Of a DNA stretch of 48,820 nucleotides, positions 2,984 through 40,356 are shown one piece after another; the first letter of the stretch is position 1, and every line of letters starts with the position of its first letter. The notes beneath the pieces were generated by a model that saw only the letters and a list, made by a program, of their open reading frames with translations, ran no database searches and was not told where the DNA came from. The stretch is from a virus. Its lineage: Duplodnaviria > Caudoviricetes. The DNA lies in the IMG/VR virus record IMGVR_UViG_3300006736_000008, positions 1 to 48,820 of that record, one strand, 5' to 3'. Position numbers and translations under genes: made by a program.

Positions 2984-3012
2984 ATATTACCACAAATTAG
3001 AATAATACGCAA
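2984..3012 (-). promoter_or_regulatory. Putative promoter of terminase/late operon
   Basis: TTGCGT-17bp-TAATAT with TG extended -10. Confidence 0.5.
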
Positions 3013-3056: not shown

Positions 3057-3103
3057 AAAAAAAACCGACACTGGCTAAGGAGTAACTTAGTTACCAGTGT
3101 CGG
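3057..3103 (-). terminator. Rho-independent terminator with anti-RBS apical region
   Basis: Stem CCGACACTGG/CCAGTGTCGG followed by T8; apical region contains GTTACTCCTTA. Confidence 0.85.
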
Positions 3104-3133
3104 CACGGTGCTTTCGCACCAACCCAAATTTCG

Positions 3134-3748
3134 TTATTCGCTCTCTACCTTTGGCATCACCTTGAAGGTTCGTCTGGCCCTGATTTCGTAGGCTTCCTCT
3201 CCATCGACATCACCCATATTCTCTAGATGACCGCCGACATCAAAGAAGTGCTGAAAGCCTCGACCCATCTTTTTACCTCTCCGTGTGTGTCGGTCGATGG
3301 CGTAATCGGGTATTTCCATATGAGGCTTATCTTTATCATGGAAGAAATATATTGCTGCGTTATCGACTACTCTACTTTTCTGTACTCGGCTCATAAGCAC
3401 GACTGCATGGACAAAGAATAAATCGTTTTCGTCACCGTCACGGTCTTTATATCTCTTGGCAAAATCCTGCCATAATTGATACAGGCCGTTGATGTCAGCG
3501 ACGAATCCTCTGTCGGCTGCAATCCCTACATCTTCAGAAAGCATTATCAGTAATCGCTTCCATGCGTACTGACCATAGTTGGAAGAATAAAGTTCGCATC
3601 CCCAGTACAATGCTTCCTTTTCAATTCCTCTCCTGATTGATTTCTGGAATGCACTGGCTACTTCAAAAAAGTCATAGCCCTGCTTGGTTTTCATTTCATG
3701 CTTTTGTTTTTTTTCCACTACATCTTCTCCAAATAAATCTGTTCCCAT
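3134..3748 (-). CDS. MgsA/RarA C-terminal-like domain protein (no AAA+ module)
   Basis: SAFQKSIRRG, SEDVGIAAD and IPDYAIDRHT motifs; AAGGAGTAAC RBS. Confidence 0.7.
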   Translation of the reverse strand: MGTDLFGEDVVEKKQKHEMKTKQGYDFFEVASAFQKSIRRGIEKEALYWGCELYSSNYGQYAWKRLLIMLSEDVGIAADRGFVADINGLYQLWQDFAKRYKDRDGDENDLFFVHAVVLMSRVQKSRVVDNAAIYFFHDKDKPHMEIPDYAIDRHTRRGKKMGRGFQHFFDVGGHLENMGDVDGEEAYEIRARRTFKVMPKVESE

Positions 3749-3780
3749 GTTACGTTACTCCTTATAGGTTTGTCTGGTAA

Positions 3781-3808
3781 AGTGTAACCCATTACCTGCG
3801 GTTGTCAA
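3781..3808 (-). promoter_or_regulatory. Sigma70-type promoter
   Basis: TTGACA-16bp-TACACT upstream of the 3748 start. Confidence 0.7.
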
Positions 3809-3810
3809 AT

Positions 3811-4014
3811 CTAATTTCTGCGTAGGGCTTCAAGCTCACCATCGTCAAAATACAGAAGTTTGCCGTCATCGAAAATAACCTCATACGGCATAGGCCATTT
3901 TTCATGGTGTATTCTGGTTATCGTGCCGACAAGATTCCTGTACCCAAGCAATGAGGCTTTCAGAATCTCAGTTACTTTGCTTTGCTTTATTCTTACCTTA
4001 TCACCAATTTTCAT
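3811..4014 (-). CDS. Small SH3-fold-like hypothetical protein
   Basis: MKIGDKVRIK...VGTITRI...YEVIFD; ATGA overlap with upstream gene. Confidence 0.55.
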   Translation of the reverse strand: MKIGDKVRIKQSKVTEILKASLLGYRNLVGTITRIHHEKWPMPYEVIFDDGKLLYFDDGELEALRRN

Positions 4015-4211
4015 AATACCGTCACCCACTTCGCTGTTACTGAAAGAAGGTTGTTATAGTCACCATGCGTCGCTTCTTCCATATACTGATTAGTTACTTC
4101 CCTTGAAACGCCATTGGTTCTCATTGCTCTTTGAACCCTGCCGAGAATCGCAAATGCGTTTCCGTCCTCACCAACCAACTTGACTTTAATGTTCGGAAAT
4201 TTAGGCTCCAT
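4011..4211 (-). CDS. Conserved phage hypothetical protein
   Basis: LVGEDGNAFAILGRV...GDYNNLL motif; AAGGAGTAAC RBS at 4215-4224 points to start 4211. Confidence 0.7.
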   Translation of the reverse strand: MEPKFPNIKVKLVGEDGNAFAILGRVQRAMRTNGVSREVTNQYMEEATHGDYNNLLSVTAKWVTVL

Positions 4212-4233
4212 AATGTTACTCCTTATGTTCGGG

Positions 4234-4890
4234 TCATTCAGTTCCATGCCGACGTTCTTTTGCCGCCCTTATCCTGTTTAATACCTTCTCACGTGTTTCA
4301 GTTTCTACGCCTTTCCGTTTGAATTTGGAGGGATAGCGTTTACGGTTCACTTTGTCAAATTCAGGTGCTACCAGTGCTATAATGTCATCGAAGCGTTTCT
4401 GCATTTTCTTATCACGTGACATCATAAACTTGCACGTTTCGATTCTGCGTTCGGCCCTTTGTTCATGTGGTCTGTCCTTCCATCGGGTCTTTACATACTT
4501 ACCTTTTTTGTCATAGTGACCATGCTTAAATTCACGGCGAAGCTGAAAGTCTTTTACGTGGGTGTATTCGTGGACTGCCACCCAAAAATTGTATGTGGCT
4601 ATTTTAATCTGGTCAACTGAATCAAGGTAACATGGCCTCCATTCAACCCTGCCTTTGTCAGTCCTAATCCATCCTTCCAACTTCTTGCCGTTTTTGGTTC
4701 GGGCTTCTGGATAAAGATACCATTTTGCTACAAAGGTACATTCGTTTGCTTCGCTCCCTACTCGCTCTCCACCCATAGTCACCTTAGTCACGACATCGCC
4801 CCAACAACCGGCGAATTCCTTCGCCAGTTGCAGGAACCTTTTGATGATTTTATCATCCATGCCTGAATAGTTAAAAAGTTTGATAGCCAT
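4234..4890 (-). CDS. Hypothetical protein with HExxH zincin-like motif
   Basis: VAVHEYTHVKDFQ with downstream PHEQRAE. Confidence 0.55.
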   Translation of the reverse strand: MAIKLFNYSGMDDKIIKRFLQLAKEFAGCWGDVVTKVTMGGERVGSEANECTFVAKWYLYPEARTKNGKKLEGWIRTDKGRVEWRPCYLDSVDQIKIATYNFWVAVHEYTHVKDFQLRREFKHGHYDKKGKYVKTRWKDRPHEQRAERRIETCKFMMSRDKKMQKRFDDIIALVAPEFDKVNRKRYPSKFKRKGVETETREKVLNRIRAAKERRHGTE

Positions 4891-5285
4891 TATATCCCCT
4901 CCATCATATCTTTTATTTCTGCGATTCTGGCATTATTCTGGTAAATGTTATCCTGTAAATCTGAATTATGATTTACCAACTCCATTTTTTCCTTGACCAG
5001 TTCACGGATGTCGTACTTCTGGCAGTCTTTTACTTTTGTTTCTAAAAAGTCAATTCTTTCCTTCATGGTTGTGACCACATCTTCCCATTTGGCGTTAGTG
5101 GCGTGAAGTGCATCTTCTTTGATAAATAAACCAATCGCCCAAGGAAAATCATTTTTGATGTTCTGCTCCACCTTCGGGAAAGTGAAAAGTAAATCATCAA
5201 AATAGGTTCCGTGACCCTTGGCTGTGATTTTTTGGATTTTATCCAAGAATTCTGAGTAGGCTTTGATTTCTTCTGACTTGCTCAT
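4890..5285 (-). CDS. Hypothetical coiled-coil protein
   Basis: ORF with AAGGAGTAAC RBS, first gene after promoter. Confidence 0.7.
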   Translation of the reverse strand: MSKSEEIKAYSEFLDKIQKITAKGHGTYFDDLLFTFPKVEQNIKNDFPWAIGLFIKEDALHATNAKWEDVVTTMKERIDFLETKVKDCQKYDIRELVKEKMELVNHNSDLQDNIYQNNARIAEIKDMMEGI

Positions 5286-5287
5286 TT

Positions 5288-5358
5288 GTTACTCCTTAAT
5301 TTTGGGTTTTGGGTTTTTCATTCTAATATATTATAACCTACTACGGAGCATACGTCAA
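5288..5358 (-). promoter_or_regulatory. Early promoter-leader module
   Basis: TTGACG-17-TATAAT-ATATTAGAATG...AACCCAAA...AAGGAGTAAC. Confidence 0.8.
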
Positions 5359-5652
5359 ATTATTTCTTTGTTTTTTTTTAATTTTATTTGCTTCCTCGAT
5401 AGCTTCATCCCAAGCTAACTTTTCCAACGTCCTGTCACAGACATCTGTTTTCAGTTGGGTGTTTTTCCAAAGCCATTTGGGTATAGTGTTCAGGCTTCCG
5501 CAATCGGTACATTTGAACTCAGTGGCAGGATGTCGTGCTACCACATGGATTCTGGTATCATTGTCGATTGCCAATATCTGCCCATACTCAAAACAATTTC
5601 CCATCACCGTCAATACTTGAATGTTCCTCATGTTTTTTCGTTTCGGTTTCAT
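5341..5652 (-). CDS. Hypothetical protein (CxxC)
   Basis: ORF with AGGAGAACTGTT RBS. Confidence 0.6.
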   Translation of the reverse strand: MKPKRKNMRNIQVLTVMGNCFEYGQILAIDNDTRIHVVARHPATEFKCTDCGSLNTIPKWLWKNTQLKTDVCDRTLEKLAWDEAIEEANKIKKKQRNNLTYAP

Positions 5653-5663
5653 AACAGTTCTCC

Positions 5664-6185
5664 TTATTCTCCGAAAATTTGGGTGAAGATTTCATGCAAC
5701 TGTTTAACATCGACCTTCATAGGCCGAGTAGTCATTTCACGTTTAAGCCCACAATGTTCGCATCCTAGTATCAGAAGGTTAATTTTACCCTTTTCGTCCT
5801 CAGCGATGGTTCTACTTTGCTCTTTGAACTTGTGTAGGCCATTATGCTTATCTTTGCCTTCGCATCGTGGTGGTTTTTTGAAGGCTCGATGCTCTCCCCA
5901 GTACCAATCATGGATGGTTTTCAGATTACCATAATGCTGCTTACGGTTAATCTGTCCATAGCCCCTGATACCGTAAATCTCTCCTGTAAGATATTCCACC
6001 ATGTACTTTCCACTGTTGCCGACATCGACCTTCCAGTATTTATTACCTCTCTTGATTCTGGTCTTGACACCAATGATGTTGGCTTCGCAATCGAGCTTGC
6101 GTTTGCGTAGGCTTTCAATCTGCTGTCGCTCAACCAGTTTGGAGAAACCTAAGATACGATTTTCAAAATCAACCATATTATCCAC
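5664..6185 (-). CDS. Conserved phage hypothetical protein
   Basis: KYWKVDVGNSGKYMVE..TGEIY motif; C-terminal CEHC; AAGGAGTAAC RBS. Confidence 0.65.
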   Translation of the reverse strand: MDNMVDFENRILGFSKLVERQQIESLRKRKLDCEANIIGVKTRIKRGNKYWKVDVGNSGKYMVEYLTGEIYGIRGYGQINRKQHYGNLKTIHDWYWGEHRAFKKPPRCEGKDKHNGLHKFKEQSRTIAEDEKGKINLLILGCEHCGLKREMTTRPMKVDVKQLHEIFTQIFGE

Positions 6186-6432
6186 AACTGTTACTCCTTC
6201 TATTCAGGGTCACATTCAGGCAGATGTTCAGGTTTTCAGCCCTGCGATTACCGACCAAAGAAAACCACTGTCCGTCGATGTCGGCATAGGCTTCAAAACA
6301 CACACGCTTGATACCGATTTGTCGCACCAGAGTCCATGCTTCCTTCCAGATATTTCGGAGGCTTGCCGACTCCAGATAGCAAATCGGCTCTCCTGTTTCG
6401 TTTTTCTCTACTAGTAATAGGTGAATCATCAC
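6178..6432 (-). CDS. Hypothetical protein
   Basis: ORF with AAGGAGTAAC RBS; exact start uncertain. Confidence 0.6.
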   Translation of the reverse strand: MMIHLLLVEKNETGEPICYLESASLRNIWKEAWTLVRQIGIKRVCFEAYADIDGQWFSLVGNRRAENLNICLNVTLNRRSNSCG

Positions 6433-6440
6433 GTTACTCC

Positions 6441-6695
6441 TTATTCGTCGTACAAAAAATTGTAAGCAAACAACACTTGATTATCAGCCAGCAGGTGTAT
6501 CCTTTTCTTCTGTATCAGGTCGGTCAATATCGGGCCTAATTTTTGGCTTACCTCTTTGACTGTCAATACTACAAAGGGGCCGGTTGAAAGACGTAGCATT
6601 CGACATACTCTCTCACGTATTTCATCCATCGAAGAATCACGATTTTTTACGGTTTTCAATACTTGCGGTATAATCATTTTGCTAAATTTATCCAT
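6441..6695 (-). CDS. Hypothetical protein (possible winged helix)
   Basis: ORF with AAGGAGTAAC RBS. Confidence 0.6.
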   Translation of the reverse strand: MDKFSKMIIPQVLKTVKNRDSSMDEIRERVCRMLRLSTGPFVVLTVKEVSQKLGPILTDLIQKKRIHLLADNQVLFAYNFLYDE

Positions 6696-6708
6696 TTTTC
6701 GTTACTCC

Positions 6709-7101
6709 TTAATATAATGGGAACACCAATTCATCTTCTTTGTCCAAGAAAAGATACTTGCTAACTTTCTTGGCTACCGATTCACACGCTCTTTGAATTG
6801 CGTTTAATTTCTGAACTGTGATTTCCCCACCGTCGTATGCACTCATAGCACAAGCATAATAAGTAGAGCCTTCGACTGCTTCCTTGAGAAGTTCTATTGT
6901 TAATCGCTCTGACATATCCATTGCTTTTTTCAATTCGTCCTTTACCAATAATTCGGCTATGTCATGTATGTCATCCTCTTGCCAGCGAAGGTCTTTTCCG
7001 TCGTCGTTGAGTACGGTACAAAGACAATCAGGAACGGTAAGGCGATGTTCCAGCACCTCCATTTCAAGTTTTGTCAGTTTCAAAATTTCTGTAAGTGTCA
7101 T
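6709..7101 (-). CDS. Hypothetical protein
   Basis: ORF with AAGGAGTAAC RBS directly after promoter. Confidence 0.7.
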   Translation of the reverse strand: MTLTEILKLTKLEMEVLEHRLTVPDCLCTVLNDDGKDLRWQEDDIHDIAELLVKDELKKAMDMSERLTIELLKEAVEGSTYYACAMSAYDGGEITVQKLNAIQRACESVAKKVSKYLFLDKEDELVFPLY

Positions 7102-7104
7102 TTC

Positions 7105-7174
7105 GTTACTCCTTAATTTATTTGGGTTCGTTTCTCATTCTAATATATTATAATACATACATCGGCAAAAGCAA
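7105..7174 (-). promoter_or_regulatory. Early promoter-leader module
   Basis: TTGCTT-16-TATAAT-ATATTAGAATG...AACCCAAAT...AAGGAGTAAC; A/T-rich upstream region. Confidence 0.8.
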
Positions 7175-7203: not shown

Positions 7204-8193
7204 TTAATTTTGAGGTGCTGGTCTGTTTCCGGCTAGTTCAGGCTTGATTTTCTTTTCTGTCTCAACAATCACATCGGACAGGATATAATTCAGCGTTCGC
7301 TGTGCTTCCCATCCGATTGCATTGTGAATCTTCTGGATATCAGGTACACGTATGAACATATCATCGAATGTCGGCTTGCAGTATTTTATTTCAGACAGAC
7401 TGTTTGTTCGTTCTTTTATCTCTTTGGCAAGGCCAAGGATACTGGTTTCCTCTCGGCTACCTACGTTGAAAACAGGATAGTCATACTGGCCTTCAGAATA
7501 CATCAGGGAATGGAGTGCTTCAACTACATCGTAAACGTGGCAGAAACATCTGATTTGTTCTCCAGTACCATAGATTACTATATCTTCCCCTTTCAGTGCT
7601 GCTTCCACGAATGACGGTATCACCATTCCATAATCAGATACTTGTCTTGGGCCTACAGTATTAAATAGTCTGGCGACTATTATGTCCAAGCCCTTGCTCT
7701 TGTGATAATCCATAGCCAGAAATTCATCAATAGCCTTACTGCAAGCGTAAGACCATCGGGCATTGTCGGTGTTCCCCAGTACGATACCGGCTTCTTCCCG
7801 AAACGGTACGTCATTACTCTTACCGTAAACCTCACTGGTCGATGCTAGTAGTATCTTCTTTTTGAATACCGAACATAGTTCAAGTACAACCTCAGTACCT
7901 TTGATGTTGTTCTCAATCGCTCTGGCAGGGTCACTCATCACCTTCATCACCCCCACTGTCGCTGCCAAGTGGAAAACAGCGTCACAGTTATATACCAGAT
8001 TGACCATCACGCTTCTATCGGCTACATCGGCCTTGAAGCAATCAAATTTCGGGTAGTCTGTTAAATGTTTTATGTTCTCCATGTTGCCGGTGCTGAAGTC
8101 ATCGACAACAATGCACTCATGGCCTTTAGCACATAGTAAATCACATAGCCAAGAACCGATAAAACCTGCTCCACCTGTTACCAGATACTTCAT
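7204..8193 (-). CDS. NAD-dependent nucleotide-sugar epimerase/dehydratase (extended SDR)
   Basis: TGGAGFIG, STSEVYG, YACSK, RLFNTVGPRQ. Confidence 0.93.
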   Translation of the reverse strand: MKYLVTGGAGFIGSWLCDLLCAKGHECIVVDDFSTGNMENIKHLTDYPKFDCFKADVADRSVMVNLVYNCDAVFHLAATVGVMKVMSDPARAIENNIKGTEVVLELCSVFKKKILLASTSEVYGKSNDVPFREEAGIVLGNTDNARWSYACSKAIDEFLAMDYHKSKGLDIIVARLFNTVGPRQVSDYGMVIPSFVEAALKGEDIVIYGTGEQIRCFCHVYDVVEALHSLMYSEGQYDYPVFNVGSREETSILGLAKEIKERTNSLSEIKYCKPTFDDMFIRVPDIQKIHNAIGWEAQRTLNYILSDVIVETEKKIKPELAGNRPAPQN

Positions 8194-8197
8194 GTTA

Positions 8198-8860
8198 TTA
8201 CCTCAGATTAAAAATATGGGTTTTACAGTTTGGTTTCGGGTACGTGGGTGGTTCTTGTATCAGCCAAGTCCACGCATTGTACTCCTCGTATATATGTTTG
8301 TTCCTGATATAAAAGTCTGCATCCAGTGTTTCGGGTACTATTAAGTCTGAGTTACCATAAATTGTTTTATTATAGAAAGCAGGCATATTGTCAAGTTCAA
8401 TATGTCTGCCAGTGCCTTTATCACGAACGTCGGTGAAGGATACTTTGCTCACATGCTCATGCGTAGTCACCAGATAATGAACAAGTTGGTGGTCGCCGTG
8501 ACCGTACTCACCGAACGGATTATGAGTGAATACCATGTCGGGTTTGATTTCACATATCGCCTTCAGGATAGCAGCACGTATCATTTTGACTGCTTGCTTA
8601 AAGGCATAAGTCTTGTTGTTGTAGCGGTTCGTCGGAGTCAATCGGTAGAAGAAATCGGGCAGGGGCAAAGCATCCAAAAGCGTTATGTTCTCTTTACGGC
8701 ATACCTCAGTAAGTGCTTTCATCCTTCGGAGCCTGTCCATCTTCACCCCCGATGAACACATCAATAGGTATCGGTCAAATTCAGCGTGCTGTAATACAGG
8801 CCAACCATATATGATTTCATCGTCTGGATGCGACATTACTGCTAAGATTTTATTGCTCAT
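8198..8860 (-). CDS. PIG-L/LmbE family N-acetylhexosamine deacetylase
   Basis: SHPDDE, THNPFGEYGHGDH; start MSNK overlaps upstream stop (TAATG). Confidence 0.88.
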   Translation of the reverse strand: MSNKILAVMSHPDDEIIYGWPVLQHAEFDRYLLMCSSGVKMDRLRRMKALTEVCRKENITLLDALPLPDFFYRLTPTNRYNNKTYAFKQAVKMIRAAILKAICEIKPDMVFTHNPFGEYGHGDHQLVHYLVTTHEHVSKVSFTDVRDKGTGRHIELDNMPAFYNKTIYGNSDLIVPETLDADFYIRNKHIYEEYNAWTWLIQEPPTYPKPNCKTHIFNLR

Positions 8861-9612
8861 TAAAATGGAACCGCCATTATTCTGTGCCAATCGGCACTCA
8901 CCCCCTGTTTCAGACCTTTGGTTTTATCTGGTCGGTGTGTCACCACATCACCGAAATACTCTTTCAATAACTGGGTCGCTGCCCTCTCATTCTCAAAGGT
9001 TCGGTATTCAGCCAGACCGCCGGGATTCTGCCAAGTCAGATTGAATGTCAGCCCCACTCGCAAATCGACAAAACAGAATCGGTTATCGTGGGCATTCATA
9101 GCAGAAAAGAAAAAATCCTCAGCTAAATCGGCTTCAGGCGGTACGTCCACTTCCCACCCTTTCAGTAATCCGATTGTACTACCCCTTACGAATCCTGATA
9201 GACGGAATGGCCTCAGTGGACTGTAGATACGGTTATCAGGTGTCGGGTTGAACCCAAACAGATGACAACCCATTTCCTTAGCAGCATTACCTGTGGACTG
9301 AACCAAGTCATAAGCGTCCTTGGGTGACAGTTTATGTGGTGTGAATGATTCTGGTGCTACCCAAAGCCTTCTGAAAGCCGATACATCATCGTCGGGCAGG
9401 AATACATCACCGAACTTCTTGTATATCCAGATGCGTTTCCTGCCAAGACCCTTCAGGCTGTCTGGATGAATCACAAGCTCTGCGTCGGGATTATATTCTT
9501 TATAAAGCGCGGCCTGAGATTTAGGAACACAGATTTTGGCGTTGGCAATACACTTATGAGTCAATACGTGGTCATGGCGTTTGTGCGAAGGAATTACGAC
9601 TTTGATTTCCAT
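8860..9612 (-). CDS. GT-A glycosyltransferase, TAGT/GREB1-like family
   Basis: VVIPSHKR, DDDV, EDFFFS and NPGG motifs; adjacent to ParB-like gene. Confidence 0.75.
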   Translation of the reverse strand: MEIKVVIPSHKRHDHVLTHKCIANAKICVPKSQAALYKEYNPDAELVIHPDSLKGLGRKRIWIYKKFGDVFLPDDDVSAFRRLWVAPESFTPHKLSPKDAYDLVQSTGNAAKEMGCHLFGFNPTPDNRIYSPLRPFRLSGFVRGSTIGLLKGWEVDVPPEADLAEDFFFSAMNAHDNRFCFVDLRVGLTFNLTWQNPGGLAEYRTFENERAATQLLKEYFGDVVTHRPDKTKGLKQGVSADWHRIMAVPF

Positions 9613-10316
9613 AGTTCAATAAACTCCTCAAAGGGCATTACCCTTCCAATACCTACATTACTGTTCTTGTACGACTGCTGTTTTTTCAGAGCAAAGATTT
9701 CCTGCAAATGAATAAAATCCATCTGGTTCTTGCAGAATATCAGGACGTAATCGTACTTTTCGTTATAACGTGGAACAATCGGGAATTTACACTTGGTCTT
9801 GCCTGTGTCCTCGTCGATTTCGGGTACTACCTCGCCTTCTTCACCTCCCATCAACTCAGCTTCGGTCAGTTCGCCCCTAAAGCCAGACATATCGAGTTCT
9901 TCCAGAACAACATTGTTTTCCAGAAAATCAAGCTCAATGCCCTGCTCAAGCATGAATCTCTGTAATCCTTCGATTGTCGGGATAGCATACTGGCTGCTAT
10001 AGACCAGAACGTATTTACAGGCTTCCTTTTCGTCTTTACAGTCGATAAACTCAGCAGGGAATTTTTCGGGTACGGTATAGCCTTCAGATTCCAGTTCGGT
10101 CATGCACTTGATACGGTGAACTCCATCGAGTACAAGTATCTCATTTTCGTTCTTCTGCCAGACCTTAAAACTGGCTGCAAAGCCGGAGTTGATTAAGGAT
10201 TCTTTCATCTTCTGCTCACGGTGTGTGGGCATTTGCTTAAAACCTTCGGGCTGAAGGATAATAAGTTTCTTCCATGCCACCTTTATCGTTTTCAGGATAC
10301 GGTTTTTAATCTCCAT
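9594..10316 (-). CDS. ParB/Srx-like N-terminal domain protein
   Basis: VLDGVHRI motif; acidic linker and small C-terminal domain typical of phage DNA-modification-linked ParB proteins. Confidence 0.78.
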   Translation of the reverse strand: MEIKNRILKTIKVAWKKLIILQPEGFKQMPTHREQKMKESLINSGFAASFKVWQKNENEILVLDGVHRIKCMTELESEGYTVPEKFPAEFIDCKDEKEACKYVLVYSSQYAIPTIEGLQRFMLEQGIELDFLENNVVLEELDMSGFRGELTEAELMGGEEGEVVPEIDEDTGKTKCKFPIVPRYNEKYDYVLIFCKNQMDFIHLQEIFALKKQQSYKNSNVGIGRVMPFEEFIELWKSKS

Positions 10317-11272: not shown

Positions 11273-11485
11273 AAAAAGGGCAAAGGGCGGTTGCAGGTTA
11301 CACCCTGCAGTAGTGTTCTTATGGTTTATAAGGTTCTGACATCAGGACTGTATCAATAATCGAACAAATAACCAGACACTCCTATGCTACGGGATTCAAG
11401 TTTCACGGCTTACCGCCTTTGCCATGCCGTGACGTTAAAATAATATGTCAGCCGGACTCAGCAAGCATAGCCTAGTCCGGCTGAC
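11273..11485 (-). ncRNA. Candidate structured ncRNA
   Basis: ORF-free gap; hairpin GTCAGCCGGACT/AGTCCGGCTGAC (11447-11485) and a ~145-nt unit closed by GGCAAAGGCGGT/ACCGCCCTTTGCC plus T5. Confidence 0.5.
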
Positions 11486-11498
11486 TTCTCAGGGATTA

Positions 11499-14460: not shown

Positions 14461-14558
14461 GTATTTTCACCCTGTTAATAATCGTCAAGGCCCACTCTCT
14501 GATAGCCTGAAAGTGCTTATTTGCCCTTTTTTTTCTTTACTGAATCTCCTTAGATATT

Positions 14559-14616
14559 GCTTGTGTCGGGCAGTCGAGGAGAACCGTTGAGAACTTCCAA
14601 CCGCCCGAACACAAGC
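14559..14616 (-). other. Operon 3' hairpin with anti-RBS loop
   Basis: ~18-bp stem with G-U pairs that work only on the minus strand; loop GAAGTTCTCAACGGTTCTCCT. Confidence 0.75.
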
Positions 14617-14632
14617 GCAGGTGAAAATAAAC

Positions 14633-16420
14633 TTATGATGTCAACGGTTCCACCTTACCATTATCAACCCAATAATACTTTAACCATGCTTCGTCAAGTA
14701 TATTCGTCGGCTTATCCAGAACGGTGCTAATCAAAATGATGTTGTCGAAGTTGCTCGACCAAGCTGGTAAACGTTGGAACAAGTGGGTTTTGTAAAAGCT
14801 GTCCAGTATCTCGATTCCGTCCAATACCAGAATACCTATTCCCAAATTCCGGCTAAGTAGTTCTGACAAAAGGACTCCGGCCCGATATTTCTCACTGTCG
14901 CTTGCCGACTCTATTGGACTGCCCAAGTAAGTTATCTCTCCTTCGGACGAAAGCATCAGTCCTTCCATATCCCAAACCTTCAATAATACTTCATCGAATG
15001 GTATTGTCGCCAGTGCTTCGTTCGCTATCCGGCGCAAATCACCATCGGGCTTGAGTAGTTTGTCGAGCCTGTCCATTTCGGCTGACTTCTTGTCGTAGTT
15101 CTCGATGCTGGCTTCAATGCTCTTTTTTTCGCTTATGACCGCATCAAACCGTGATTTCTCCAAACGTAGTTTCTCATTGAATGCAATCATCTGGTTCACT
15201 TCGTTCAGGTCAGCGGTCAGTACAGGTATCCTTGCTCCTGCGTGGAACATATCGTCAAATGATTTGACATCTTCCTTGCTGTCTTTGATGGCCTTTTTGT
15301 AGGTTTCCTGTATTTCTTCGGCACTTTTCAACTCACCATGTTTGGTTTCCATTTTATTATCCAGAGTAGCTACCGCTTTATCATAGCTGTTGAAGTCTTT
15401 TTTGCATAATGTCACCTGCTGCTTGACCGCATCAATTAAGTTGTTCTTTTTTTCGGTCGCTATCTCACTGTTACAATGTGGGCAGAAGTCACCCATATCC
15501 TCCCATTTCTTCAAATCAGCCTCAAGCCGTTTCATGTGACCGTGTGCTTCAGCACCCTTCTTGTACAATTCCTGTGCCTGTTTCTGTTGGGTCTTTATCA
15601 GGTCTTTGAGGTTGGCGATATCACGCTTGTTTTCCTCAAGAGCCTTTTCCTGCTTAACGATGAATTTTTCGATTGCCTTTTTTTGCTCTAAAAGGCCATC
15701 GGTAGCAGGTGGATTATCTGGCAGAGTACCCAGTTCTTTCATATAGCTGTCACGTTCGTTTTGCCTGAGCCTGATTTTGTCGTCGATGTCGCTCATGGTT
15801 AGTTTGGTCAGGTCGAATGTTCGGGCATTATCACCTTCACCGATATCGACCACGCTGCTTGGTGCTGACATCTTCTTAGTGTTTAGTTCTTTGATAAGCC
15901 GACCATATTGCTGACGTTGTTCGATAGCCCAATCCTGTGCCGTATCCAGATTATCCCGACATTTATCATAAACCTCAGTGCCGAAACCGTTCATCTTGGA
16001 CAGGTATTCTTCAATCTTATCCGCTTGTGACGAGTGCGATAACAATGCACCGAAAACACGTTGTCGGTTCTTCGCATCCATCCCCAAGACATCTTGTGGA
16101 TTTATCGCCAACATCGCCGTTTCAGGGTCGATAGTCACCTTAGTGCCTTTCTTCTCAGTTCTGGCTATAACGCTTTCAGGTGTTTCCAAGGTGACGGAGA
16201 GAGTACCATCACCTGCGCGGCAAGCCAGTTGCGGTGCTTGGTTTTTACGATTAAAACCCCGATTCGGTACAGTACCACAAAGGCCAAAGGTGATGGCATC
16301 CCTCACGGAAGATTTACCCTGAGCGTTCGTACCGAGGAACACTGACACAGGGCTTGATAGGTCGATATCTGCATCCGGCAGACCAAGGAAATTTTTGACT
16401 TGCAACTTATTCAGTTTCAT
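14633..16420 (-). CDS. SMC/Rad50(SbcC)-like ATPase
   Basis: Walker A GTNAQGKS, long coiled coils, central CPHC zinc hook, degenerate signature SASDSE, Walker B ILVLDG. Confidence 0.85.
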   Translation of the reverse strand: MKLNKLQVKNFLGLPDADIDLSSPVSVFLGTNAQGKSSVRDAITFGLCGTVPNRGFNRKNQAPQLACRAGDGTLSVTLETPESVIARTEKKGTKVTIDPETAMLAINPQDVLGMDAKNRQRVFGALLSHSSQADKIEEYLSKMNGFGTEVYDKCRDNLDTAQDWAIEQRQQYGRLIKELNTKKMSAPSSVVDIGEGDNARTFDLTKLTMSDIDDKIRLRQNERDSYMKELGTLPDNPPATDGLLEQKKAIEKFIVKQEKALEENKRDIANLKDLIKTQQKQAQELYKKGAEAHGHMKRLEADLKKWEDMGDFCPHCNSEIATEKKNNLIDAVKQQVTLCKKDFNSYDKAVATLDNKMETKHGELKSAEEIQETYKKAIKDSKEDVKSFDDMFHAGARIPVLTADLNEVNQMIAFNEKLRLEKSRFDAVISEKKSIEASIENYDKKSAEMDRLDKLLKPDGDLRRIANEALATIPFDEVLLKVWDMEGLMLSSEGEITYLGSPIESASDSEKYRAGVLLSELLSRNLGIGILVLDGIEILDSFYKTHLFQRLPAWSSNFDNIILISTVLDKPTNILDEAWLKYYWVDNGKVEPLTS

Positions 16421-16438
16421 AACGGTTCTCCTGTATAA

Positions 16439-17407
16439 TTACCATAACTGATTCAACTTACCATTTTGGGGGGAAGCAGGGGGCTGCGCTTGATTGCCTT
16501 CCTCGCTCTTTACATCGGGGAGAGGTTCGGAAGTGCGGTTTGTTAGTGGTTCAGGCGCAGCCGCACCTGCTTGGGGGGCTTGTTCTTCTTCTGAAGTTAC
16601 CTTGCCGTCTATTATGTTTTCCGGCTCTGGTGCATCAGGAACGTCCAGTAAGTTCGACAGTTGGTCATCCATCTTATCTTCATGGTCTAATGCTCTGGCT
16701 AACGGTGACTCCACCGACATAGGCAGATATTTCGTGCCTCTGCGTACCAGTGTTTTCCGACACATTTCACCAAAATAGTTTGTCCAAGGGCCAACTATAG
16801 TACCGTCTTTGGTTTTACTTGGACTCGACTGCATAACCGACAGTAGTTGGCTTCTGGTCATAAAGTCAGAGTGTACCGAATCGTCACCACGTAACTTACC
16901 GACAAAGTAAGCACCGACGATTTTGTCGTCGTCAGGCTCCACTTTCAGGTTGCGAACGTGCCTTATCATCGGCTGATGGCCCAAAATGTATTCAAAGTGG
17001 TCAGCTTCACACTCATAGACAACCTCAGCCCTGATGAAGCCGATTTCGCCGGTGTTCCTTGCCAGTGTTATCAGTCCCCGATACCCGACAATCAGTATCG
17101 CTTCCAGACATCTGTTTTTGCCGTTCCAGAATGGTACTAGATAAGCCTGACCAAGTGTTCCGTCCGGCATAAGGCCCAGTGTCGCCGATTCGACAATCGA
17201 CTTGGCTATGCTGGTTGCGGTGCATTCCAAGAGTTTCGGGTTTCGACTTGCTGCCCTCTCAGCCACACCAATCATTTTTTCAGCGGTCAGATGTTTGGGC
17301 AGAAGTTTAGCCAGTTCGCCCTTCATGTAATCGCTGTAAAGTAGGTCACGAAGGTTCTTCCTTGTGACCAGTTTCGCTTCAACATTTTCAACTAATTGAT
17401 TTGCCAT
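16439..17407 (-). CDS. recT: RecT-family ssDNA annealing protein
   Basis: LGLMPDGTLGQAYLVPF, GYRGLITLARNTG, PWTNYFGEMCRKT, KYLPMS. Confidence 0.93.
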   Translation of the reverse strand: MANQLVENVEAKLVTRKNLRDLLYSDYMKGELAKLLPKHLTAEKMIGVAERAASRNPKLLECTATSIAKSIVESATLGLMPDGTLGQAYLVPFWNGKNRCLEAILIVGYRGLITLARNTGEIGFIRAEVVYECEADHFEYILGHQPMIRHVRNLKVEPDDDKIVGAYFVGKLRGDDSVHSDFMTRSQLLSVMQSSPSKTKDGTIVGPWTNYFGEMCRKTLVRRGTKYLPMSVESPLARALDHEDKMDDQLSNLLDVPDAPEPENIIDGKVTSEEEQAPQAGAAAPEPLTNRTSEPLPDVKSEEGNQAQPPASPQNGKLNQLW

Positions 17408-17440
17408 AACGGTTCTCCTTATATATGGTTACTTTTGTAA

Positions 17441-17468
17441 AGTATAACATAATATATACTTACGTCAA
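17441..17468 (-). promoter_or_regulatory. Sigma70-type promoter for recT-SMC operon
   Basis: TTGACG-16-TATACT with TG extension. Confidence 0.7.
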
Positions 17469-17546
17469 ATCGGATATCATAAAAAAAAAGGATATCCCTA
17501 ATCCTGTCATTATAATTGCTATGCTAATCAGTTGGAATAGTTTCAT
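17460..17546 (-). CDS. 28-aa hydrophobic peptide
   Basis: MKLFQLISIAIIMTGLGISFFFMISDLT; ATGA-coupled to upstream small ORF. Confidence 0.45.
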   Translation of the reverse strand: MKLFQLISIAIIMTGLGISFFFMISDLT

Positions 17547-17641
17547 TTTTTCTTCACCCATAATGCTGTTAAAAAACCCAGTACGTAACCTAGACCTGTG
17601 GCACAACCAATACCTGTAAGCACTCTATAATAGAAATCCAT
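17543..17641 (-). CDS. 32-aa single-TM peptide
   Basis: MDFYYRVLTGIGCATGLGYVLGFLTALWVKKK; GGAG upstream. Confidence 0.5.
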   Translation of the reverse strand: MDFYYRVLTGIGCATGLGYVLGFLTALWVKKK

Positions 17642-17644
17642 GCT

Positions 17645-17833
17645 TCAACTCCCTTCGGGCCACTTTATTCTTGGCTTGCTAAATTCATGTAAATAAACGT
17701 CACCGTTGGTATAGCTGATTTTACAATCTTCCTTTTTATCTCTGTGCATGGCTCGATGTCGGGCAATACCAAGGTAATGAAAGTCTTTTTTGCAAGTATA
17801 ACAGTAGCATTCTTTTAGTAGGTCATCAGTCAT
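17645..17833 (-). CDS. Small C2H2-like zinc-finger protein
   Basis: CYTC...GIARHRAMH. Confidence 0.6.
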   Translation of the reverse strand: MTDDLLKECYCYTCKKDFHYLGIARHRAMHRDKKEDCKISYTNGDVYLHEFSKPRIKWPEGS

Positions 17834-18629
17834 TTTTCATCAGTCCATTCACATATTTACAGGTCGGATAGAATTCGCACCATTTTGGACTGCATTTCCA
17901 GAATCCCACAGGTGGCGGTAGAAATACTCCTGCTTCCATCGCCCTCTGTGCCATAGCGAATTTCTGCATCGTCACCCTCAAATCTGCTTCCGTCCTCATG
18001 GTTCTTTGCTCTATCGGTTTGATGCCCGATTTCTGGAAAACCAACCAGTCGAGTGTCATTTTCTTAGGTGCTACCCCATACTTGGCCTTGTGAAATATAT
18101 GATATAATGACAGTTGGTCTGAACACGCTGCTGCAAAAGCCGGTGGCGTTCTCTTGGTCTGTTTCAGGTCACGTAAAGTGTAATCCTTCTCGATTACGTC
18201 GATACGGCCCTTCAGATTAAAAGGCCAATCAGGAAGTTCGACCTCAACCGATAGCTCAACCGCCATTGGTTTTATCCTTTGTTGATAAAACTTAAAGTCG
18301 GCCTTCACCAGTTGGATGGTTTCGTCTATGAGTTGGTCACGAACCGCTGCTTTTGGTAAACCCTCAAAATCACAAAGGTTTATGTTATCGTTCAGGAAAT
18401 AGCCCACCACTTCGTCACGCGCTGCATCGGTAATGTCCGATAACTCACGGTTATAGCCTTTTTCCTTCTTGTAAAGTAGGTTGACTTGTCGGCCCTTATG
18501 AGTGCCACACCCCCTGACTGCATAATATCCTGACGGCTCACGTTCTTTATTAAGCTCACGCCTTCGGAACGCCTCACCGCAATCCAACATCAGGTTAAGT
18601 TTGGATTGATGCCACGTAAATTTTTCCAC
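17826..18629 (-). CDS. RecB/Cas4-like PD-(D/E)XK exonuclease
   Basis: GTH, GRIDVI, DLK and QLSLY motifs; N-terminal Cys plus C-terminal CSPKWCEFYPTC (Fe-S pattern); near RecT. Confidence 0.85.
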   Translation of the reverse strand: MEKFTWHQSKLNLMLDCGEAFRRRELNKEREPSGYYAVRGCGTHKGRQVNLLYKKEKGYNRELSDITDAARDEVVGYFLNDNINLCDFEGLPKAAVRDQLIDETIQLVKADFKFYQQRIKPMAVELSVEVELPDWPFNLKGRIDVIEKDYTLRDLKQTKRTPPAFAAACSDQLSLYHIFHKAKYGVAPKKMTLDWLVFQKSGIKPIEQRTMRTEADLRVTMQKFAMAQRAMEAGVFLPPPVGFWKCSPKWCEFYPTCKYVNGLMKND

Positions 18630-18650
18630 AACGGTTCTCCATAATCAGTT

Positions 18651-20977: not shown

Positions 20978-21321
20978 TAGACCGTTACTCCTTCCGCTTT
21001 CAATTCCCCCAAGGTTATCGGTTTCCAGTATAGGTCACGTTCGATTTTCAATCCGACCGGCCCACGTAATCCTTCAAGTTCTGATAAGCTGAAGTAGCCA
21101 AGTTCATGTTCCAGACCGTGAACCATACCAAAAAACAGGTAATCGGTCTGCTCTCCAGTATCTTCGTCAAAGACCGGCCCACCTTCTAACACGTACCAAG
21201 TCCAGTTTGTCCAAGGTGTGAAAAACTTACATACAATCTTCGCATCGTCACCATCACCACATTTGTCACCTGAACCGATTTCAGGCATATCCTCAATCAG
21301 TTTTTTTGTCAGTAGTTTCAT
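20977..21321 (-). CDS. DUF2958-like protein
   Basis: KFFTPWTNWTWY...FFGMV.G.E.ELGYFSLSEL...IERDLYW. Confidence 0.85.
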   Translation of the reverse strand: MKLLTKKLIEDMPEIGSGDKCGDGDDAKIVCKFFTPWTNWTWYVLEGGPVFDEDTGEQTDYLFFGMVHGLEHELGYFSLSELEGLRGPVGLKIERDLYWKPITLGELKAEGVTV

Positions 21322-21336
21322 GCTTTGTTTCCTTAA

Positions 21337-21543
21337 TTAAGAGGCCAACCATTCGCCATAAGTTTTGACCGTCCAACCCAGTTGGGTCGCACAATCGACA
21401 TAGATTAGATACTCATCTTTTTTACGAGATTGATAATTGATACAATCATCACAATGCTGGTTTATCGGGTCAGTTTTCACGCCGATAACACCACAGAATT
21501 TACAAATGTCAGTTCGTTCGATTTGATTTACGTCGTTTGCCAT
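21337..21543 (-). CDS. Small Cys-rich hypothetical protein
   Basis: CKFC...CDDC; AAGGAGTAAC RBS. Confidence 0.65.
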   Translation of the reverse strand: MANDVNQIERTDICKFCGVIGVKTDPINQHCDDCINYQSRKKDEYLIYVDCATQLGWTVKTYGEWLAS

Positions 21544-21548
21544 AATTC

Positions 21549-21611
21549 GTTACTCCTTATTAAGTGGGTTTATGTTCTAATATATTATAACACGTACCCA
21601 ACAAGAAGCAA
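21549..21611 (-). promoter_or_regulatory. Early promoter-leader module
   Basis: TTGCTT-16-TATAAT-ATATTAGAA...AACCCA...AAGGAGTAAC. Confidence 0.8.
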
Positions 21612-21633
21612 TTACAAAATAATAAAAATTACC

Positions 21634-22005
21634 TCACTCGATAAAATCTTCGATAGCTTCACTCATACTAGCAAAACCATCTTCATCACCGTCAAGCATT
21701 TCAGCCAGTGTAGTTGTCAACTCTGCACGTTGTTCTGCCTTCGGGTCTTTGCCGTTGTGTTCCTCATTATCCTCACAAGCAGGACAACGAAGGATAGCAC
21801 AGACATTATGGTGTGCGAACTTCCACCCACGTTCTTCAAACGCTTTCTCAAAGATAGTTTTCTGGTTCTCGATATTTGAGCTTTTATTGAAGTTGCCTTC
21901 CCACATCTTAATTAGTTCTTCGTCCAAAACGCACTCATGCACTTCATCCCACATTAAATGATAAGTATCCCAAGGTTCTCGACAATTTGCACAACTAACA
22001 TCCAT
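21634..22005 (-). CDS. Zn-binding phage hypothetical protein
   Basis: CANCREPWD...CPAC...DGDEDG. Confidence 0.7.
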   Translation of the reverse strand: MDVSCANCREPWDTYHLMWDEVHECVLDEELIKMWEGNFNKSSNIENQKTIFEKAFEERGWKFAHHNVCAILRCPACEDNEEHNGKDPKAEQRAELTTTLAEMLDGDEDGFASMSEAIEDFIE

Positions 22006-22007
22006 AG

Positions 22008-22334
22008 TTAAAGCACTCCTTGTTTTTGAAGTCTTTTTTGCATCAGGATTGCAAAGAGTTTGGTCAATGCGATTTTGACAGCCAACGTTTGACTATTGAA
22101 TTTATCTACAGAATGGCTCAGGTAGCGATAAATGCTCTGAGCTTCTTCAGAGTTCAAAGTACCTTCCGATACCGCTATCGACTTGACTTCCTGATACTTG
22201 GCGTGTTCCTGAAAATCCATATCCAGTTTTTTACTAAGCTGTGCCAGTGCTTCGGGTGTTTTTTCGCCAGATGTCACCAAATCTGCCAGTTCAACCTGAA
22301 CCAATTCAATCATGTCCTCTATTCGATTCGCCAC
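22008..22334 (-). CDS. Hypothetical protein
   Basis: GTG start with AGGAGAATCGTT RBS. Confidence 0.65.
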   Translation of the reverse strand: MANRIEDMIELVQVELADLVTSGEKTPEALAQLSKKLDMDFQEHAKYQEVKSIAVSEGTLNSEEAQSIYRYLSHSVDKFNSQTLAVKIALTKLFAILMQKRLQKQGVL

Positions 22335-22350
22335 AACGATTCTCCTTATT

Positions 22351-22746
22351 CTAGTTTTCCAATACCATTATGTAATCTGCCATTACTGACATTACCATTC
22401 CCTTAACTTCCTCAATGTTGGATATGTCTTGGTAGTCTGGATTTTTGGGATACACACTTACTTGAAGTTCGCCACCGTCAGGACATACCAGTAAGTCGAG
22501 TTTCATGTAAGTCCTGTTGCCGTCGAATAGTTCTGCCAACGGTGTAGCCTTCTCTGCGTCCTGAATACGAATCAGCGGAATTATTACCATTTCCTCAAGC
22601 TCGATATCGTTTGGGCTTCTCCAACCGTTCGACGGATTGTCACTTTCATCAATCAGGTCATCAGGGTCAAGGCCCTGCTTAATCCTAAGATATTCCTCAT
22701 GCTCTTTCTTGTGCTGATTTCTGATTTTTTGTAAATTACGGTTCAT
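22351..22746 (-). CDS. Hypothetical protein
   Basis: AAGGAGTAAC RBS. Confidence 0.7.
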   Translation of the reverse strand: MNRNLQKIRNQHKKEHEEYLRIKQGLDPDDLIDESDNPSNGWRSPNDIELEEMVIIPLIRIQDAEKATPLAELFDGNRTYMKLDLLVCPDGGELQVSVYPKNPDYQDISNIEEVKGMVMSVMADYIMVLEN

Positions 22747-22757
22747 TTTGTTACTCC

Positions 22758-23270
22758 TTAAAGTTCGGGCTTCTGTACTATATCAAACCGATAGTTGTTG
22801 CTGCCTTCCTCATCAATAGGAACGCTGACTTGAATCCTCGGCTTACCATTGCAAACCTTGTTAATTGAAATGAACTCCCCTTTGGTTCCCATGAACTCCA
22901 CCTTTTCCTCGTCCACGTAATCGACTTTGACTCCAAGTGCCGTTTCCAACGCCAAAGCCAAATTCTCCATTTTGTCCGCTGCATCCTTCCACTGTTTCTC
23001 TATTTCTGCCTTGCTCCTGATATCGTCCTCATCATGAACAATAACTCTGCTGGTAAGCCTCACCTCCACCGTTTTGCCGTCATAGTAGCGAAGCACTCTT
23101 GACGGAGGACTTGCACAGCGGGCTTGAGTATAGATACGCTGAAGTTGCGGAATACTCTTTTGCTTAAAACCATCGGTCAATTCGCTCACTTTTTTAATAT
23201 CCCACTCTAAACGCTTCAACATTTTTGTCCGAATTTTGTCCAGCAATTCTGGTTTTGTTGACCTTGCCAT
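22758..23270 (-). CDS. Hypothetical protein (first early gene)
   Basis: Start MARSTK after AAGGAGTAAC; in-frame leaderless ATG at 23309 also possible. Confidence 0.7.
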   Translation of the reverse strand: MARSTKPELLDKIRTKMLKRLEWDIKKVSELTDGFKQKSIPQLQRIYTQARCASPPSRVLRYYDGKTVEVRLTSRVIVHDEDDIRSKAEIEKQWKDAADKMENLALALETALGVKVDYVDEEKVEFMGTKGEFISINKVCNGKPRIQVSVPIDEEGSNNYRFDIVQKPEL

Positions 23271-23274
23271 TTTT

Positions 23275-23346
23275 GTTACTCCTTGTTTCATTTGGGTTTT
23301 ATTAATCATTCTAATATATTATAACACACTTCGGCAATGTTGTCAA
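23275..23346 (-). promoter_or_regulatory. Early promoter-leader module (perfect consensus)
   Basis: TTGACA-17-TATAAT-ATATTAGAATG...AACCCAAAT...AAGGAGTAAC. Confidence 0.88.
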
Positions 23347-23376: not shown

Positions 23377-23421
23377 AAAAAAAAGTGACCGCAACAGTTG
23401 GATGCAAACTATCACGGTCAC
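23377..23421 (-). terminator. Rho-independent terminator ending the structural operon
   Basis: 15-bp stem (with G-U) GTGACCGTGATAGTT/AACTGTTGCGGTCAC, loop TGCATCC, then T8. Confidence 0.85.
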
Positions 23422-23477
23422 AGGAAACAAATGCATTTCTTCCGACGTGCCTTCGTACTTTCTAGACATTCAATATA

Positions 23478-40204: not shown

Positions 40205-40356
40205 TACGATTCCTTCTTGTTTTCCTTGGCTTCTTCTTCATCGAAAAAATCACGCATGAATTTACCACCTAGCGTATGTTTGTTGGTATCTTCATCGCCC
40301 ACCGAAAACTCTATCGGCTCTGACCATCTTTTTGTTATTGATTTTTGTTCGGGCAT
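40204..40356 (-). CDS. 50-aa ORF, candidate immunity protein for MuF-ART
   Basis: MPEQKSITKRWSEPIEFSVGDEDTNKHTLGGKFMRDFFDEEEAKENKKES; TAATG overlaps with both neighbours. Confidence 0.55.
   Translation of the reverse strand: MPEQKSITKRWSEPIEFSVGDEDTNKHTLGGKFMRDFFDEEEAKENKKES

What the first reader, a model, noticed from the sequence alone, without database searches (positions are those of the whole stretch)
3057..3133. Terminator apex is the exact antisense of an RBS motif shared by 11 early genes
Seen: AAGGAGTAAC lies just upstream of start codons at 3754, 4215, 5288, 6190, 6433, 6701, 7105, 20984, 21549, 22750 and 23275 (plus-strand GTTACTCCTT; 8 of the 11 extend to TAAGGAGTAAC). The only opposite-orientation copy I found (3076-3086) is at the apex of the terminator closing the early block. 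The RNA therefore carries GUUACUCCUUA, with UUACUC exposed in a 6-nt loop. Just 5' are a GAAA-tetraloop hairpin (3107-3120) and AUUUGGGUU (3121-3129), which is complementary to the AACCCAAA(U) element in the early leaders. Inference: a 3'-end RNA element that silences a whole gene class through a shared RBS barcode, either in trans as an sRNA or by 5'-3' fold-back as in hok/aapA mRNAs.
Basis: partly seen in the sequence, partly recalled or inferred. Interest (0 to 1): 0.88.

Follow-up and report, generated by a model that had tools for sequence, protein, structure and literature searches.

The report
Phage hairpins mirroring two RBS barcodes
This uncultured phage puts one of two short shared tags at the ribosome-landing sites of 16 non-structural genes and carries, for each tag, one non-coding hairpin whose tip is its mirror image, so these RNAs likely switch each gene group off together, although no transcript or effect has been seen.

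Summary
Observation confirmed. AAGGAGTAAC occurs 11 times at start sites and once reversed, at the tip of a terminator-like hairpin (E1); shuffles give a mean of 0.10. New here: a second start-site tag, AGGAGAAYYGTT, precedes five genes including exonuclease, RecT and an SbcC-like gene. It too has exactly one reversed copy, at the tip of another non-coding hairpin (E2, 14559-14616). E1 and E2 are the two best-folding of 12 intergenic regions scored, and 0 of 3000 shuffles recreate both. Each tip is predicted to bind its own gene class first. Best reading (0.58): two trans-acting antisense RNAs that repress gene classes. No homolog, variant or RNA data exist, so covariation and expression are untested. 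In mycobacteriophage Adephagia, the published, unexplained reversed SAS copy also lies in a hairpin loop, where late transcription reportedly starts. Against: only 6 of 18 Cluster K phages keep that loop, and two tagged phages show no anti-tag. The scan's notes report this design on other phage DNA; my literature searches found no paper describing it.

The parts
3057..3133 (-). E1: non-coding 3' element directly after the stop of the MgsA-like gene (5' tail, GNRA hairpin, bulged terminator-like hairpin, U8)
   Evidence: no Rfam match at gathering score, only 2 chance-level hits at E 2-4.3
3076..3086 (-). Anti-tag I (GUUACUCCUUA); UUACUC (3080-3085) is the exposed loop, CUUA pairs in the apical stem
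   Evidence: predicted opening cost 3.1 kcal/mol
3121..3130 (-). Single-stranded 5' tail complementary to AACCCAAA(U) in promoter-proximal leaders
   Evidence: (best partners 7101, 23270, 5652, 27150, 5285)
3107..3120 (-). 5-bp GAAA tetraloop hairpin
3134..3748 (-). Stand-alone MgsA/RarA C-terminal-like gene, tagged (class I); its 3' UTR is E1
   Evidence: (PF12002, E 1.4e-5, below the curated cut-off)
3781..3808 (-). Sigma-70-like promoter (TTGACA-16-TACACT), the nearest likely source of E1 RNA
   Evidence: consensus match only
2984..3012 (-). Weak promoter-like site between E1 and the probable small-terminase ORF (candidate late promoter)
   Evidence: read from the sequence; not listed by the scan; inference
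3754..7114 (-). Tag I block B: AAGGAGTAAC at 3754, 4215, 5288, 6190, 6433, 6701, 7105; class II tag before 5652; shared promoter motif TATAATATATTAGAA at about 7150 and 5333
20984..23284 (-). Tag I block A: AAGGAGTAAC at 20984, 21549, 22750, 23275; class II tag before 22334; promoters at 23346 and about 21580
14559..14616 (-). E2: long non-coding hairpin after the stop of the SbcC-like gene, with no U-tract
   Evidence: z -3.8; z -6.9 for the best 60-nt window; no Rfam match
14577..14589 (-). Anti-tag II (CAACGGUUCUCCU) at the weakly paired apex of E2
16420..18640 (-). Exact class II tags GGAGAACCGTT before the SbcC-like (16420), RecT (17407) and exonuclease (18629) starts
14620..14629 (-). 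Stretch complementary to the RBS (14462-14471) of the next gene, a DnaA-type HTH protein; predicted to close a helix around E2

Best explanation
E1 and E2 are non-coding hairpins whose tips are complementary to two different start-site tags, and they likely act as trans-acting antisense RNAs that block translation of each tagged gene class. Shown: two tags confined to non-structural genes, and one reversed copy of each at a hairpin apex just after the stop codon of a member gene. Inferred: E1 is made as the 3' end of the early-block or MgsA-like transcript and survives as a stable fragment. Its UUACUC loop would seed on GAGUAA, the bulge-weakened 5-bp apical stem would open, and a 10-11-bp duplex would cover the Shine-Dalgarno sequence and spacer, excluding the 30S subunit. 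The 5' tail may add a second contact on promoter-proximal leaders. E2 would do the same for the recombination-gene class with a 11-15-nt contact. Because each RNA derives from a transcript of its own class, the circuit would be delayed negative feedback that closes the early and recombination phases and frees ribosomes for the untagged late genes.
For: Tag I: 11 sense copies and 1 reversed, against a shuffle mean of 0.10. Unbiased 8-10-mer counting over start regions yields two extended tag families, each with one opposite-strand copy. Those copies lie in the two best-folding of 12 intergenic regions scored (z -7.4 and -6.9; the best window per region was chosen first, so z is inflated). In 3000 shuffles of 1984 non-coding bases, anti-tag I arose 11 times, anti-tag II 0 times and both 0 times. 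Accessibility-corrected pairing over 68 start regions: the E1 apex ranks ten class I genes first (-7.2 to -11.6 kcal/mol; the 11th is rank 12), and the E2 apex ranks all five class II genes first (-11.2 to -16.4; next -7.9). 0 of 31 late genes carry a tag. Tag conservation ends where pairing ends, and both class II substitutions are C-to-T opposite G, which G-U pairs tolerate (n=2, weak). Background: in 171 IMG/VR loci (2.0 Mb) holding either tag there was 1 reversed copy, in coding sequence. Analog: Adephagia's single reversed SAS is in the loop of a long intergenic hairpin between genes 92 and 93, the interval where late transcription reportedly starts (PMC11373665, section read).
Against: No homolog of E1 or E2 was found, so loop-tag covariation is untested. 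I saw no promoter of its own for E1 or E2, so a separate small RNA would need processing. Five of the 11 anti-tag I bases are predicted paired in the ground state. Tags exist without an anti-tag hairpin: complete virus record G001 has 7 copies of tag I, all before ORFs, and none of its 10 one-mismatch sites is a loop-displayed reverse copy; Pixie has 18 SAS and no reverse copy within 2 mismatches in bases 28,000-61,147. Among 18 Cluster K phages, the anti-SAS loop is within 2 mismatches in 6, degenerate but C/U-rich in 5, and lost or replaced in 7, while the neighbouring SAS is unchanged in 16. Stem covariation there is weak, 3 of 19 pairs in 10 chosen sequences. The ranking is partly circular, since shared tags must rank together.
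Confidence: 0.58

Rival explanations
1. Cis-only action: each hairpin pairs back to tagged start sites on its own transcript (hok/aapA-like fold-back) once the message is complete, limiting its translation.
For: Each hairpin ends, or lies within, a transcript of its own class. The nested-structure model gives about 19% pairing of the MgsA-like RBS with the apex in a 718-nt mRNA.
Against: Four class I genes lie 17-20 kb from E1, and the class II gene at 5652 lies downstream of E2 behind other promoters, yet they keep the tags. Pseudoknotted fold-back could not be modelled.
Confidence: 0.12
2. The hairpins are sensors, not repressors: tagged mRNAs bind the tip and alter termination, processing or translation of what follows (the packaging operon after E1, the DnaA-type HTH gene after E2).
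For: E1 precedes the terminase genes. The E2 region is predicted to hide the next gene's RBS. The Adephagia hairpin is in the interval where late transcription reportedly starts.
Against: Tip binding is predicted to open only the apical 5 bp of E1, leaving the 11-bp GC-rich stem before U8. Binding would in any case still cover the partner's RBS.
Confidence: 0.1
3. The tags are simply strong or recombination-spread ribosome-binding sites, and the reversed copies are chance or by-products, or the start sites of tiny plus-strand ORFs (22 aa after the E1 copy, 47 aa after the E2 copy).
For: Tags without anti-tags exist in G001 and in Pixie's right arm. The phage encodes RecT and an exonuclease. 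Plus-strand start codons exist at 3097 and 14587.
Against: Two of two tags have a reversed copy at a hairpin apex; 0 of 3000 shuffles give both. The background is 1 reversed copy in 2.0 Mb. No plus-strand promoter was listed just upstream of either copy.
Confidence: 0.1
4. The tags are sites for a protein (a RegB-like nuclease, a translational repressor or a DNA-binding protein), and the reversed copies are further DNA sites or incidental.
For: T4 RegB inactivates early mRNAs by cutting GGAG in start regions (PMC3014915, passages). E1 contains the inverted repeat GTAAC-N3-GTTAC.
Against: An RNA-binding protein would not explain complements displayed in hairpin tips. E2 lacks such a palindrome. 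No RegB-like family was hit among the 50 proteins scanned, though most have no family at all.
Confidence: 0.1

Closest known systems
Start-associated sequences (SAS) of Cluster K mycobacteriophages (PMC3203893, passages read; PMC11373665, passages and one section)
   Same: A repeated asymmetric motif at the RBS of non-structural genes, conserved beyond the 16S-pairing part, in one orientation except for a single reversed copy; function stated as unknown. I find Adephagia's reversed copy in a hairpin loop.
   Different: Unrelated sequence. This phage has two tags with two matching hairpins, and E1 ends in a U-tract. The passages I read do not place the reversed SAS in a hairpin or propose it as the regulator.
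c4 antisense RNA of phages P1/P7 (PMC12197685 and PMC8201110, passages)
   Same: A phage RNA with complementary stretches in loops that pairs at a ribosome-binding site and blocks translation.
   Different: c4 controls one antirepressor message. E1 and E2 would address 11 and 5 dispersed genes through shared tags. No Rfam match.
T4 RegB shut-off of early mRNAs (PMC3014915, passages)
   Same: Class-wide inactivation of early messages through a motif in the Shine-Dalgarno region.
   Different: RegB is a protein nuclease; here the candidate reader is a base-pairing RNA.
3'UTR-derived, multi-target bacterial sRNAs; PAK_P3 ncRNA1/2 (PMC10914365, passages); RNAIII/RsaE-type anti-SD loops (recalled, also named in scan notes)
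   Same: Stable RNAs from processed 3' ends, some abundant late in infection; loop-displayed anti-SD seeds.
   Different: The passages read give no phage-internal targets. Here the targets share an exact 10-12-nt tag extending past the SD.
hok/sok and aapA fold-back inhibition (recalled)
   Same: A 3'-end sequence complementary to a 5' translation-initiation region.
   Different: The upstream gene encodes a 204-aa MgsA-like protein, not a small toxic peptide, and most targets are on other transcripts or far away.

Membership tests
c4 antisense RNA | Match to the Rfam covariance model | tested here: not met
   No match at gathering score in the whole window; only two chance-level hits to other families near E1 and none near E2
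c4 antisense RNA | Loop-displayed complement to an RBS region | tested here: met
   Predicted folds and duplexes; prediction only
c4 antisense RNA | Target is an antirepressor operon | tested here: inconclusive
   No antirepressor hit among the 50 ORFs scanned, which include all 16 tagged genes, but most have no family
SAS-type start tags | Repeated asymmetric motif at the RBS, beyond the SD, in non-structural genes only | tested here: met
   11 + 5 tagged starts; 0 of 31 late genes
SAS-type start tags | One orientation except a single reversed copy not tied to a gene start | tested here: met
   One reversed copy per tag; short plus-strand ORFs of 22 and 47 aa follow but out of the usual register
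SAS-type start tags | The Cluster K 13-mer sequence | tested here: not met
   The enriched start-site words of this genome are different sequences
SAS-type start tags | Upstream extended element with inverted repeats (ESAS) | not tested
   A shared promoter motif precedes four leaders; inverted repeats were not analysed
Intrinsic terminator | GC-rich hairpin followed by a U-tract | tested here: met
   E1: (not listed by the stricter scan). E2 has no U-tract
Intrinsic terminator | Transcripts end at the U-tract | not testable with these tools
   No RNA holder listed
3'UTR-derived trans-acting sRNA | A distinct stable RNA species that represses targets by base pairing | not testable with these tools
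   No RNA data and no cultured host
3'UTR-derived trans-acting sRNA | Conserved seed covarying with its targets | tested here: inconclusive
   No homologs found. The Cluster K analog keeps the loop in 6 of 18 and loses it in 7 with the tag largely unchanged
hok/aapA fold-back mRNAs | The gene encodes a small toxic membrane peptide | tested here: not met
   The upstream gene is a 204-aa MgsA C-terminal-like protein
hok/aapA fold-back mRNAs | 5'-3' pairing dominates in the full-length mRNA | tested here: inconclusive
   About 19% in a nested-only model

The most novel reading that the evidence does not exclude
Many unrelated phages address temporal gene classes by writing short barcodes into ribosome-binding sites and reading them with matching hairpin RNAs. 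This genome runs two orthogonal barcode/anti-barcode channels at once, and the unexplained SAS of Cluster K mycobacteriophages is in part the same system, read by a hairpin in the late leader.
Probability: 0.38. Interest if true: 0.9.

Novelty: new variant of a known kind. Interest (0 to 1): 0.74.

Why it matters
If true, a phage times whole gene classes with protein-free RNA switches addressed by RBS barcodes, an RNA counterpart of T4 RegB shut-off, here with two channels predicted to have little cross-talk. It would also give a concrete hypothesis for the SAS motifs of Cluster K mycobacteriophages, called ill-defined as late as 2024 (PMC11373665), that can be tested in a cultured phage. Compact orthogonal RBS/anti-RBS pairs would be useful as synthetic-biology parts.

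Tried and rejected
Relatives. Large terminase relatives are 48-63% identical; their loci lack the element and the tag. L033 is identical to the window over its 12,295 bases and L034 nearly so, so neither is independent. The MgsA-like query alone found nothing. 80 MgsA-like and 80 RecT loci showed no tag with a loop-displayed non-coding reverse copy. The best full-length SbcC-like relatives are 41% identical or less, with no context. Genome contigs gave nothing. Pattern scans gave 17 copies of one unrelated coding match and 16 ordinary RBS or unrelated hits. blastn of E1 and E2 against phage records gave only chance hits.

Runs. No RNA holder was listed. Contigs of six marine DNA runs showed no variant in E1, E2 or the tags where they covered them, and coverage was patchy.

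Own errors and weak leads. The accessibility part was flawed (only long duplexes) and was replaced; the large-terminase start region, which ranked high's uncorrected duplexes, is absent's top lists. The forced fold-back energy equalled the unconstrained value and is not used. A third candidate pair (23422-23433 against starts 11257 and 21321) is weak: two-gene hits arise in 151 of 3000 shuffles. The strong hairpin near 11440-11490 has no start-site target among its ten best partners. Gene starts were chosen by script and by eye (68 start regions), not by a gene caller.

Full report
Context. The window is a whole 48,820-base virus record with its main genes on the minus strand. It has a large terminase, major capsid, RecT, exonuclease, SbcC-like ATPase, replication initiator, RuvC-like resolvase and a DNA-modification-like cluster (50 ORFs scanned). 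Public runs holding it are labelled marine metagenome, and long near-identical pieces were laid from several. The host is unknown.

The observation. AAGGAGTAAC occurs 12 times: 11 on the mRNA strand before start codons and once reversed at 3077-3086, against a shuffle mean of 0.10. Eight extend to TAAGGAGTAAC. The region after the stop of the MgsA-like gene folds into an open 5' tail, a GAAA hairpin and a bulged hairpin with a UUACUC loop followed by U8 (z -5.8; coordinates). Rfam has no match. The tail complements AACCCAAA(U), found in three promoter-proximal leaders. TTTGGGTT occurs 4 times on the mRNA strand genome-wide, so its place within 50 bases of the anti-tag is unlikely by chance (about 0.004 by density; my estimate). 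Tail and apex are in the same order as their targets, so simultaneous binding would need a non-nested geometry, which I could not model.

A second pair. While listing start regions I noted a second tag, GGAGAAYYGTT, before five genes: 22334, exonuclease, RecT, the SbcC-like gene and 5652. It has exactly one reversed copy, at 14578. That copy sits at the weakly paired apex of a long hairpin just after the SbcC-like stop. An unbiased word count over start regions recovers these two extended tag families, each with one opposite-strand copy; one further 8-mer, ATTAAGGA, has an opposite-strand copy at 10192. E1 and E2 are the two best-folding of 12 intergenic regions scored. In 3000 dinucleotide shuffles of the 1984 non-coding bases, anti-tag I appeared 11 times, anti-tag II never, and both never; none of 31 late genes is tagged. 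With opening costs included, the E1 apex ranks ten class I starts first of 68 and the E2 apex ranks the five class II starts first; this is partly circular. The two class II deviations are both C-to-T opposite G and tolerated as G-U pairs, and my pattern allowing them was written before I saw E2; n=2 is weak. E2 has no U-tract. Its flanks are predicted to pair and hide the RBS of the next gene, a DnaA-type HTH protein.

Relatives. None is close enough. Terminase relatives are at most 63% identical and their loci differ in layout. 160 loci found through the MgsA-like and RecT genes show no such pair. No variants fall in the elements.

An analog in cultured phages. Pope et al. 2011 (PMC3203893, passages) describe 11-19 SAS copies per Cluster K genome at start sites of non-structural genes, of unknown function, and note a single reversed copy in Anaya, Adephagia, Angelica and CrimD. 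In Adephagia that copy (one mismatch) forms the 10-nt loop of a long hairpin between genes 92 and 93. RNA-seq places the start of late transcription in that interval (PMC11373665, section read; figures and supplements not seen). The region is shared by 193 records, of which I examined 18, chosen for diversity. The loop is within two mismatches of anti-SAS in 6 (duplex -20 to -22 kcal/mol), degenerate but C/U-rich in 5 (-13 to -16), and lost or replaced in 7, while the neighbouring SAS is unchanged in 16. In 10 of the 18 (8 left out, 7 of them for lacking the loop), 3 of 19 stem pairs show compensatory change and 93.7% of cells pair, which is weak support by the tool's own controls. Pixie has 18 SAS and no reverse copy within two mismatches in its right arm. 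Record G001 has seven copies of tag I, all before ORFs, and no anti-tag hairpin. So tags do not always come with an anti-tag, and the hairpin may be an added control on a tag that has another primary use.

Mechanism. The most likely reading (0.58) is two trans-acting antisense RNAs, each released from a transcript of its own class, seeding through the loop and zipping over the SD and spacer to block initiation. This would give delayed shut-off of early and recombination genes while untagged late genes continue. Shown: tags, reversed copies, their positions and their rarity. Predicted: folds and duplexes. Inferred: expression, processing, repression and timing. The rivals are cis fold-back (0.12), hairpins as sensors (0.10), chance, by-product or tiny plus-strand ORFs (0.10) and protein-read tags (0.10).

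Known systems and novelty. It would work like c4 RNA (loop-to-RBS antisense; PMC12197685 and PMC8201110, passages) and reach the outcome of T4 RegB (PMC3014915, passages), but it is a member of neither, and its tags are SAS-like. Nine literature searches and passages of two phage transcriptome papers showed no description of tag-matched hairpin RNAs; most subscription papers are outside the library. The scan's own unchecked notes report the same design in at least eight other phage genomes and nothing on this genome or look-alikes. I treat those notes as leads, not support. What this case adds is two orthogonal pairs in one genome and a direct look at the Cluster K hairpin, with both support and exceptions.

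Verdict. A real, non-random feature and a new variant of phage antisense control with an unproven function. Interest 0.74.

Noticed in passing
window 14461-14632 (-): The bases just after the SbcC-like stop are complementary to the RBS of the next gene (DnaA-type HTH protein), closing a helix around E2; possible translational coupling of a regulator.
   Followed up: partly
window 23384-23433 (-): Terminator-like hairpin after the last late gene. The 12 bases 5' of it complement start region 11257 (10 of them also 21321), and its 7-nt loop complements GGATGCA at the possible starts 2968 and 19813. Statistically weak (151 of 3000 shuffles give a two-gene hit).
   Followed up: partly
window 11440-11490 (-): Strong 12-bp intergenic hairpin (z -6.2) with no start-site target among its best partners; possible terminator or processing site.
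   Followed up: partly
window 3134-3748 and 7204-10316: In many other phage loci the stand-alone MgsA-like gene co-occurs with homologs of ORFs 8860-9612 (TET-associated glycosyltransferase-like) and 9594-10316. Here the tagged early block B lies between them, as if inserted.
   Followed up: partly
window 40356-42044 (-): A 562-aa gene in the head/tail region has a C-terminal ADP-ribosyltransferase domain (PF03496, E 3e-10).
   Followed up: no
window ~23321, ~21580, 7150, 5333 (-): Four leaders share the promoter motif TATAATATATTAGAA followed by an A/C-rich tract and tag I, forming a repeated promoter-leader cassette.
   Followed up: partly
window 19380-19460: Short direct repeats inside the replication-initiator gene, possibly origin iterons.
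   Followed up: no
L139:30560-30830 and L220-L236: The Cluster K interval before the last genes is a conserved multi-hairpin non-coding region preceded by a shared promoter-like motif; several records annotate a hypothetical ORF across it.
   Followed up: partly
window 22717-22759 (runs X2, X3): A more abundant unrelated contig in two runs aligns to the 22746 start region including tag I, hinting that other marine viruses use the same tag.
   Followed up: no
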